From Hydrolagus colliei (lineage: Eukaryota): DNA of 64,000 bases. Position 1 is the stretch's first letter. Every line of letters starts with the position of its first letter. Shown piece after piece: positions 29,216-60,169 of this stretch. The translations under genes and the position numbers were made by a program. The notes beneath the pieces are model-generated. The model did no database searches and was not told where the DNA came from. It saw only the letters and a list, made by a program, of their open reading frames with translations. The DNA lies in assembly GCA_035084275.1 (NCBI GenBank), contig CM068750.1, positions 9,672,001 to 9,736,000 of the forward strand, read 5' to 3'.

Positions 29216-29489
29216 TGTTTTTTTTTGGCTTCCCCCATAACTTGCAGCAGTCCGACTGCATACTCTGCATATCAGAGCCTGGCTGGCGTACGACTGGCTA
29301 TGGCCACCACTACTTCCGGGTTCCGTCATTCTCCCGCCGCCGCCGCTCAGCGCTGCCAGCGCATTATTACTGACAACACACTCATTCTGTAACCAACCAA
29401 CCTCCCAACCTGCCACCTCCTCAATACTCACTGACAGCCACTTATTCAAACAAACAAAAAAAAACTACGAAAAAGAGAAGCCGAATCTG

Positions 29490-29860
29490 CTGCTTTTTTT
29501 TTTCTCTCTCCCTTTTTCTTTTTCTCTTTCCTGCCCCCTTTCCCCCACCCCCACCCCCACCCCACCAACCACCCAACTCCTTCTTCTCCTTCTTCTTGTG
29601 TGTGCGTGTGTGTGTGTCTGTGTTTGGGTGCGTGCGTGTGTGTGTGTGTTTTGTTTTAAAAAGGGGGAAAAAAAAACACTCCTGCGTGAAACGTTTGTTT
29701 TTCCTTCTCTTCTCCCCCCCCCCACCCCCCCCCCTTCCTCCCCCACCCCCCCTACTCCCCCTCCCCCCCAACCCCCCCCACCACCGTTTCCCATCGCTTC
29801 TGTTTTTTTTAAAACAGTTTTTAATTTTTTTTACCCAAAAAAAACAACCAAAAAAAAGCT
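29490..29860 (+). repeat. Low-complexity block: pyrimidine tracts, C-runs, (TG)n
   Basis: Directly visible; source of the spurious poly-Pro and poly-Gly ORFs. Confidence 0.85.
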
Positions 29861-29932
29861 AGCGGTCCAAAGGCAAGTCGGAGTTTTGCAACGGCAGACC
29901 ATCATTCATTCAATACCTTGACAACCCTACTT

Positions 29933-29942
29933 TGATTGACAG
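29933..29942 (+). promoter_or_regulatory. PBX-MEIS/PREP decamer TGATTGACAG, overlapping E-box CAGCTG
   Basis: Exact match to the established PBX-MEIS/PREP consensus. Confidence 0.7.
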
Positions 29943-29960
29943 CTGGAGTGGCAAAAAGCC

Positions 29961-30011
29961 ATGAGAGACGACAGTTTTGTTACAAGCCGGCTGTTGACGG
30001 GCCGATCATAA
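29961..30011 (+). other. Candidate upstream ORF, 16 aa MRDDSFVTSRLLTGRS*
   Basis: gccATGa start (G at -3), open to TAA at 30009-30011, upstream of the main ATG. Confidence 0.5.
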
Positions 30012-30045
30012 CCTTCAGTAATCTTTTTTTTTGGCTTGACATTTT

Positions 30046-30110: not shown

Positions 30111-30261
30111 NNNNNNNNNNNNNNNNNNNNNNNNNNNNNNNNNNNNNNNNNNNNNNNNNNNNNNNNNNNNNNNNNNNNNNNNNNNNNNNNNNNNNNNNNN
30201 NNNNNNNNNNNNNNNNNNNNNNNNNNNNNNNNNNNNNNNNNNNNNNNNNNNNNNNNNNNNN
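30111..30261. other. Assembly gap (N run) within the MEIS2 5' region
   Basis: 151 N. Confidence 1.
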
Positions 30262-30443
30262 GTGAGAAAGACAAAAAAAAGACAAACTCCCCTTGGCCCC
30301 CGCTTTTAAACTGCGATAGTGGAGAGGATAGCAGAAGTCGGAAACTGTATTGGAAAAAAAAGGGATCTCGTTGAACCACTACTAACTGGACTGGGGAATT
30401 TTTTACACAGAAGACACATCCACGAGTATAGGAGCGCAGACTG

Positions 30444-30455
30444 ATGGCGCAGAGG
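30444..30455 (+). CDS. MEIS2: MEIS2 coding exon 1 (MAQR)
   Basis: ATG GCG CAG AGG followed by donor GTAGG at 30456; typical 12-nt first coding exon of MEIS1/2; phase 0 into exon 2. Confidence 0.93.
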
Positions 30456-30717
30456 GTAGGTTTTTCTTAATCTTGCAACACTCACCTATCGGATAATCCT
30501 CTCTCTATCTGTGGGCCTGCCCGATTCCTCTGATGTAGTAATGATGGCGGCCCATATATATATATATATATTATTATTTTTGTAAAAAAAACACTGTTTT
30601 AATAGCAAAAGTATAATGTGCACCAGCATGTTCTCCTGTGTTCTCCCTCTGTGCTCTGCTTTCTCGCAAGTCTGCTGTGTTCTTTTTTTTTAAAAAATGC
30701 CCTTAATTCTGTTGCAT

Positions 30718-30793: not shown

Positions 30794-31030
<237 letters not shown>

Positions 31031-32039: not shown

Positions 32040-32181
32040 GCATCCTTTATTTCCTCTCTTAGCTTTGGTGTTTGAGAAATGCGAGTTAGCGACCTGCACT
32101 CCCCGGGAACCCGGCGTAGCAGGCGGCGACGTGTGCTCGTCTGACTCGTTTAACGAGGACATAGCAGTATTCGCAAAGCAG
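32040..32181 (+). CDS. MEIS2: MEIS2 coding exon 3 ([47 protein letters not shown]; MEINOX/HM1)
   Basis: Acceptor gtgttgcAG, donor GT at 32182; 142 nt; canonical HPLFPLL motif of the PBX-interaction domain. Confidence 0.98.
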
Positions 32182-60037: not shown

Positions 60038-60169
60038 NNNNNNNNNNNNNNNNNNNNNNNNNNNNNNNNNNNNNNNNNNNNNNNNNNNNNNNNNNNNNNN
60101 NNNNNNNNNNNNNNNNNNNNNNNNNNNNNNNNNNNNNNNNNNNNNNNNNNNNNNNNNNNNNNNNNNNNN
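60038..60169. other. Assembly gap (N run) in intron 7
   Basis: 132 N. Confidence 1.

What the first reader, a model, noticed from the sequence alone, without database searches (positions are those of the whole stretch)
29961..30011. Candidate conserved-peptide uORF (MRDDSFVTSRLLTGRS*) in the MEIS2 leader
Seen: a 16-codon ORF starting 18 nt after the PBX-MEIS decamer. Its gccATG has a purine at -3, unlike the main start (ctgATGG, C at -3), and no other ATG is visible between it and the main ATG (gap excepted). My unverified recollection is that the human MEIS2 leader has an ORF of equal length ending ...LLTGRS*. If so, start, stop, frame and C-terminal residues have been kept since early gnathostomes, suggesting a translational dosage control or micropeptide for a haploinsufficient transcription factor. 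This is the best candidate for an undescribed mechanism here.
Basis: partly seen in the sequence, partly recalled or inferred. Interest (0 to 1): 0.7.

Follow-up and report, generated by a model that had tools for sequence, protein, structure and literature searches.

The report
Known ancient uORF in MEIS2 leader
A short reading frame in front of the developmental gene MEIS2 matches one already catalogued in humans, so it is real and very old, but it likely works by being translated rather than through its peptide, and it is not a new mechanism.

Summary
The 16-codon ORF at 29961-30011 is there as described. It is the orthologue of a catalogued human Ribo-seq uORF of MEIS2, c15riboseqorf11: same 51-nt length, 11 of 16 residues identical, including the last six. 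A human MEIS2 conserved-peptide uORF was also already listed and tested, wild type against frameshift, and is not among the eight of 17 with peptide-dependent repression. That it is this ORF is inferred, because the supplement was unreadable. Against a functional peptide: PhyloCSF is negative (-10 primates, -25 mammals), no mass-spectrometry study supports it, and four of five replacements are non-conservative single-base steps, as random change would give. For it: the differences avoid the C-terminal six codons (p about 0.04), and that catalogue required Ka/Ks below 0.5. Best reading: a likely sequence-independent, reinitiation-type uORF inside a leader conserved at nucleotide level. One small new point: a frame labelled 'young, de novo' in the human table is intact in a distant jawed vertebrate.

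The parts
29961..30011 (+). uORF2, the finding: 16 codons plus TAA; orthologue of human c15riboseqorf11; start context G at -3, A at +4; stop lies 432 nt before the main ATG
29300..29392 (+). uORF1: 30 codons, strong start context (G at -3, G at +4); first 10 residues equal those of human c15norep17 (37 codons), tail and length differ
29300..29463 (.). Leader block with 0 differences over 164 nt in a contig from run X1 (organism A); covers all codon positions of uORF1 and 71 nt of non-coding sequence after its stop
   Evidence: table 8; RNA status of the run is only guessed
29313..29319 (.). ETS-type site inside the conserved start of uORF1; promoter-like (motif recalled)
29933..29942 (+). PBX-MEIS/PREP-type decamer, only copy in the window, overlapped at its 3' end by an E-box; candidate DNA-level site (motif names recalled)
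29371..30041 (+). Five MEIS-type TGACA half-sites across the leader (29371, 29432, 29919, 29937, 30037); 1.9 expected, p about 0.04
30111..30261 (.). N run of 151 bases in the leader; could hide further ATGs
30444..30455 (+). Main start and coding part of exon 1 (4 codons, then a splice donor); C at -3, G at +4
30800..31030 (+). MEIS2 coding exon 2
32040..32181 (+). MEIS2 coding exon 3, matches Pfam PF16493 (Meis_PKNOX_N)

Best explanation
This is an ancient AUG uORF of the MEIS2 leader, orthologous to a catalogued human Ribo-seq uORF, that likely dampens MEIS2 translation by being translated, without needing its peptide sequence. Shown: the frame, its orthology and its listing as translated in human. 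Inferred from established scanning rules: part of the scanning 43S complexes start at this moderately good AUG and stop after 16 codons; being short and 432 nt from the main start, the frame would allow some reinitiation, while other ribosomes leak past. Output at the weak main AUG would be lowered and tunable. Also inferred: most of the residue identity is a by-product of nucleotide-level constraint on a leader block that carries TALE-factor sites.
For: Human orthologue of identical length in a Ribo-seq catalogue, with PhyloCSF -10.45 (primates) and -25.44 (mammals) and 0 MS studies. All 5 replaced residues (positions 2, 3, 6, 9, 10: R/K, D/H, F/S, S/C, R/G) are single-base neighbours of the window's codons; their mean BLOSUM62 is -0.8, against -0.67 for random single-base missense changes (49% of random sets of five score as low) and +0.16 for substitution-weighted ones (12% as low). 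MEIS2 is one of 17 human conserved-peptide uORFs tested and is not among the eight named as sequence-dependent repressors. uORF1 is an internal control: ten identical residues, yet different length and tail and PhyloCSF -92.78, inside a block with 0 differences over 164 nt, third positions and non-coding bases included. The leader is poor in ATG, 2 against 6.3 expected, p about 0.05, so the two it keeps stand out. No unusual RNA fold in 9 of 9 segments, z -1.1 to +1.6.
Against: Repression by this uORF is not shown: the 2020 assay compared wild type with frameshift only. ORF survival between two species is weak evidence of selection on the frame: with 5-10 substitutions it survives by chance 48-23% of the time. 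All five differences fall in residues 2-10 and none in 11-16 (p 0.042), the pattern of stalling peptides. The 2020 pipeline kept only uORFs with Ka/Ks below 0.5 and q below 0.05, which points to peptide-level constraint if its MEIS2 entry is this frame. The BLOSUM test rests on five changes and does not exclude selection (p 0.12). PhyloCSF on 16 codons has little power (my judgement). Synonymous changes could not be counted. Translation in this organism was not shown.
Confidence: 0.55

Rival explanations
1. The block is conserved as a DNA element (autoregulatory TALE/HOX-type sites in an exon-1 enhancer or alternative promoter). The ORF is a tolerated passenger that ribosomes translate with no selected effect.
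For: Unique decamer 18 nt upstream and five TGACA half-sites, p about 0.04; a HOX-like hexamer overlaps the stop codon at 30006 (motif recalled and imperfect); four CpGs inside the ORF; negative PhyloCSF; frame survival needs no selection at low substitution counts; the upstream block is invariant regardless of codon position. PMC9456764 questions the translational reading of hyperconserved leaders (start of abstract only).
Against: An AUG in fair context that is translated in human would normally cost main-ORF output, and ATGs are otherwise scarce in this leader. No binding or enhancer data were seen for this element.
Confidence: 0.25
2. The C-terminal LLTGRS-stop acts in the ribosome exit tunnel and stalls or slows termination, perhaps only in certain cells or with a certain signal, blocking scanning to the main AUG.
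For: Last six residues and stop position identical with human, differences confined to residues 2-10 (p 0.042); the 2020 study chose test cases for well-conserved C-termini after a Ka/Ks filter, and allows that negatives may act only under certain conditions.
Against: No frameshift effect in HEK293T, by elimination from the named positives (figure not seen; identity of the tested uORF inferred); negative PhyloCSF; non-conservative replacements at four of five changed residues.
Confidence: 0.12
3. Promoter choice switches the uORF in or out: a start site 3' of 30011 would give a short, uORF-free leader, so control is by transcript isoform.
For: Promoter-type motifs occur both near 29313 and later (CCAAT at 30349; motifs recalled). 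Compatible with the best explanation.
Against: No start-site data were obtained; the human catalogue shows translation at and upstream of this frame.
Confidence: 0.05
4. The 16-residue product is a stable micropeptide that acts in trans.
For: 11 of 16 residues shared with human.
Against: 0 MS studies and negative PhyloCSF; replacements look random.
Confidence: 0.03

Closest known systems
Human MEIS2 uORF c15riboseqorf11 (chr15:37099872-37099922, minus strand), row 2182 of supplementary file 2 of Sandmann et al. 2023, PMC10032668
   Same: Same gene leader, 51 nt, 16 codons, 11 of 16 residues and the last six identical; same order behind an upstream uORF.
   Different: Five residues differ; spacing from the upstream uORF start is 661 nt here and 536 in human. 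The table labels the human frame 'primatomorpha - young' and 'de_novo_ORF', which does not fit an intact copy in this genome; I did not read how those labels are defined.
MEIS2 CPuORF of the ESUCA catalogue (Takahashi et al. 2020, PMC7530721)
   Same: A human MEIS2 uORF called peptide-conserved, chosen for a well-conserved C-terminus and assayed against a frameshift.
   Different: Its sequence is in a supplement I could not read, so identity with this ORF is inferred. It showed no sequence-dependent repression, by elimination.
Sequence-dependent stalling uORFs (PTP4A1, AZIN1 as described in PMC7530721; AMD1 MAGDIS and fungal arginine attenuator recalled)
   Same: Short AUG uORF with C-terminal conservation upstream of a regulated gene.
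   Different: Their defining frameshift sensitivity was not seen for MEIS2, and no ligand is known.
Hyperconserved vertebrate 5' leaders of developmental genes (bioRxiv 10.1101/2020.06.29.165878; disputed in PMC9456764)
   Same: Blocks of near-invariant sequence in the leader of a developmental transcription factor; DNA-level and RNA-level readings compete.
   Different: I saw only search listings and abstract openings; whether MEIS2 is in those sets was not established (one search found no such paper holding all three terms).

Membership tests
AUG-initiated uORF | ATG and in-frame stop 5' of the main start | tested here: met
AUG-initiated uORF | Lies inside the mature transcript | tested here: inconclusive
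   Human orthologue is listed as an exonic uORF, with another translated uORF further 5'. For this organism no run on record as RNA was found; one contig of a run only guessed to be RNA covers 29300-29463.
AUG-initiated uORF | Translated (ribosome footprints) | tested here: inconclusive
   Listed in a human Ribo-seq catalogue; raw footprints not seen; nothing for this organism.
Orthologue of human c15riboseqorf11 | Same gene, position, length and sequence similarity beyond chance | tested here: met
   (p about 6e-9); host gene matches PF16493
Conserved-peptide uORF (ESUCA sense) | Peptide conserved across at least two other orders | tested here: inconclusive
   Only one pair compared here (this genome and human); the published MEIS2 entry passed, identity inferred.
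Conserved-peptide uORF (ESUCA sense) | Ka/Ks below 0.5 | not testable with these tools
   No orthologous DNA for the ORF was at hand. Published signals conflict: ESUCA filter passed (identity inferred) against negative PhyloCSF.
Sequence-dependent (stalling) uORF | Frameshift relieves repression | not testable with these tools
   Published test of a human MEIS2 CPuORF was negative in HEK293T, by elimination.
Sequence-dependent (stalling) uORF | C-terminal residues preferentially conserved | tested here: met
   6 of 6 last residues identical, 5 of 9 differ in residues 2-10; p 0.042. Weak, and also expected from a nucleotide motif.
Functional micropeptide | Coding-like evolution and detected product | tested here: not met
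   PhyloCSF negative and 0 MS studies in the published row; replacements fit random missense.
Structured RNA leader element | Fold more stable than shuffles | tested here: not met
   9 of 9 segments with z between -1.11 and +1.62; no covariation test possible.
TALE-bound promoter/enhancer element | Occupied by PBX-MEIS/PREP and active in cis on transcription | not testable with these tools
   Motifs present and mildly enriched; no binding data seen.

The most novel reading that the evidence does not exclude
The invariant LLTGRS-stop is a condition-dependent ribosome-arrest signal kept since the jawed-vertebrate ancestor. It sets MEIS2 dose only in neural, cardiac or limb cells or under a signal such as retinoic acid, which a HEK293T assay would miss, and it shares its bases with a MEIS autoregulatory DNA element, coupling transcriptional and translational feedback in one 80-base block.
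Probability: 0.1. Interest if true: 0.6.

Novelty: already known. Interest (0 to 1): 0.22.

Why it matters
MEIS2 is dosage-sensitive in humans (recalled), so a translated uORF this old is a sensible place to look for non-coding variants and for ways to raise MEIS2 output. The frame itself is catalogued and a peptide-dependent effect has probably been tested without result, so this is confirmation, not discovery. The modest addition is evolutionary: an ORF labelled young and de novo in a widely used human table is intact, with the same length and ending, in a distant jawed vertebrate, a concrete warning about age calls on very short ORFs.

Tried and rejected
Paralogue comparison failed. Own-genome searches found no second copy of the leader or of exon 2. 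The two other exon-3 hits are PKNOX-like (name recalled) and their upstream 19.8 kb matched the leader only in simple repeats among the 40 best rows printed. A second MEIS-like gene on C3 has a 200-N run 5' of its matching exon and no exon 2 or 3 match in 19.8 kb. Sequencing runs: no RNA holder listed; this is no evidence on expression. In one search, 4 of 24 listed runs were laid on the upstream leader: one (X1) gave one informative contig, two (X7, X9) showed only simple-repeat pieces among those listed, one (X4) nothing. No read or contig data were obtained over the uORF itself, so its codon-position pattern in relatives stays open. RNA structure: nothing unusual. N-terminal extension in frame with the main ATG: closed by a stop five codons upstream. 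Literature: the six-residue C-terminal motif is in 0 main texts but in one supplement; MEIS2 with uORF terms gave 7 and 8 papers, of which one is a uORF study. The supplement of PMC7530721 was too large to read; it holds the tested uORF's sequence and Ka/Ks. The letters under the N run 30111-30261 are unknown; a further ATG there is not excluded. Earlier findings of the scan: none relevant.

Full report
Observation. The ORF is as described: ATG at 29961, 16 sense codons, TAA ending at 30011 on the + strand. A 10-base PBX-MEIS-type site (name recalled) ends 18 nt before it and is the only copy in the window. The main start is at 30444, followed after four codons by a splice donor; exon 3 matches Pfam PF16493. 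The uORF start has G at -3; the main start has C at -3 and G at +4. Between 29300 and the main start there are only two ATGs outside the 151-base N run, at 29300 and 29961, against 6.3 expected from a first-order model (p about 0.05). Length alone means nothing: 41% of 2,532 ATG-ORFs in the window reach 16 codons.

The genome. G000 has 1.0 billion bases. It carries linked alpha- and beta-like haemoglobin exons. The beta-like exon is about half identical to its best solved relative (36 of 74 residues by my count) and has a four-residue gap. That fits a jawed vertebrate far from mammals, birds and teleosts, and probably a cartilaginous fish (inference; the organisms of the PDB entries are recalled, not shown). 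So 'kept since early gnathostomes' is plausible, and 'far older than primates' is safe.

The human orthologue is catalogued. In supplementary file 2 of Sandmann et al. 2023 (PMC10032668; I saw two rows and the search listing, not the text), row 2182 is c15riboseqorf11, a MEIS2 uORF of 51 nt and 16 codons. It shares 11 of 16 residues with the window's ORF, including the last six; chance identity of 10 of 15 after Met is about 6e-9. The row gives PhyloCSF -10.45 in primates and -25.44 in mammals, 0 MS studies, and the labels 'primatomorpha - young' and 'de_novo_ORF'. Row 2183, c15norep17, is a second MEIS2 uORF 536 nt further upstream. Its first ten residues equal those of the window's ORF at 29300-29392, though it is 37 codons against 30 and its tail differs (PhyloCSF -92.78). 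So both uORFs, their order and roughly their spacing are shared, and some human transcripts start upstream of both. I saw 2 of the 5 MEIS2 occurrences in that file.

The peptide question has probably been tested. Takahashi et al. 2020 (PMC7530721; I read the abstract, ten passages, the first of two parts of the genome-wide results section and the Methods) list MEIS2 among 17 human conserved-peptide uORFs assayed as wild type against frameshift in HEK293T cells. The eight positives are named (PTP4A1, MKKS, SLC6A8, FAM13B, MIEF1, KAT6A, LRRC8B, TMEM184C); MEIS2 is not one, so it belongs to the nine without a sequence-dependent effect. The figure and the supplement were not seen. That the tested uORF is this one is my inference: test cases were chosen for well-conserved C-termini, and of the two MEIS2 uORFs I saw only this one keeps its C-terminus. 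The same paper counts against my reading in two ways: its entries passed Ka/Ks below 0.5 at q below 0.05, and it notes that negatives may act only under certain conditions.

Peptide or nucleotides? The five replacements (R/K, D/H, F/S, S/C, R/G at residues 2, 3, 6, 9, 10) are each one base away from the window's codon. Four are non-conservative. Their mean BLOSUM62 of -0.8 sits at the middle of random single-base missense sets (49% as low) and in the lower tail of substitution-weighted sets (12% as low); five changes cannot settle it. All five fall before residue 11 (p 0.042), which fits a stalling peptide but also a nucleotide motif around the stop. One random substitution breaks the frame with probability 0.137, so with 5-10 substitutions it survives by chance 48-23% of the time: retention between two species does not prove selection on the frame. 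The leader also shows conservation that ignores codon position: a 165-nt contig of run X1 matches 29300-29463 without a difference, across uORF1 and 71 bases beyond its stop. X1 is of organism A, whose best listed runs hold only about a fifth of the sampled words of the leader; how close a relative it is I do not know. The leader has five TGACA half-sites against 1.9 expected (p about 0.04), an ETS-type site inside uORF1's conserved start, and no unusually stable fold in 9 of 9 segments. I could not count synonymous changes in the uORF, because no orthologous DNA for it was obtained and the paralogue's 5' end was not found in the assembly.

Mechanism. Shown: frame, context, orthology, and listing as translated in human. 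Inferred from established scanning rules (recalled): a share of scanning complexes starts at this AUG, terminates after 16 codons, and either leaves or resumes scanning over 432 nt to reinitiate at a main AUG with a weak -3 position; others leak past. The net effect would be lower, adjustable MEIS2 output that depends on the presence and length of the frame, not on its residues (0.55). Rivals: a passenger frame in a DNA element (0.25), a condition-dependent stalling peptide (0.12), control by promoter choice (0.05), a trans-acting micropeptide (0.03). No experiment I saw tests the ATG itself.

Novelty. Already known as an element. Searches for MEIS2 with uORF terms gave 7, 2 and 8 papers, one of them a uORF study; judging by the listings none is devoted to this uORF's function, within a library that lacks most subscription journals. 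The earlier notes of this scan hold nothing on it. What this window adds is an intact copy in a distant vertebrate, which conflicts with the 'young, de novo' label, and the shared two-uORF layout. Interest 0.22.

Noticed in passing
window 29300-29392: A second uORF with a strong start context whose first ten residues match human c15norep17; it overlaps an ETS-type site, so its conserved start may be promoter DNA rather than peptide.
   Followed up: partly
window 29300-29463: Zero differences over 164 nt in a contig of run X1 (organism A); the contig begins at the uORF1 ATG, which says nothing firm about a start site.
   Followed up: partly
PMC10032668 supplementary file 2, row 2182, against window 29961-30011: The human frame is labelled young and de novo although an equal-length, 11-of-16 identical frame is intact in this genome; short ORFs may be mis-aged in that table.
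   Followed up: partly
G000:C3:110489116-110489187 (-), loci L016, L018, L019: A second MEIS-like gene whose 5' exons were not found; a 200-N run lies directly 5' of the matching exon. No third MEIS gene was found.
   Followed up: partly
G000:C6:76780825-76780932 (-) and G000:C37:5077103-5077207 (-): Two PKNOX/PREP-like genes (name recalled from the sequence pattern).
   Followed up: no
G000:C25:3330977-3339920, loci L022, L023: Linked alpha- and beta-like haemoglobin exons without a close solved relative; the beta-like exon has a four-residue gap.
   Followed up: partly
window 30539-30551: A YY1-like motif (recalled, seen by eye) in intron 1 close to the first exon.
   Followed up: no
window 30111-30261 and 60038-60169: Two N runs, of 151 and 132 bases; the first lies in the leader between the uORF and the main start.
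   Followed up: no
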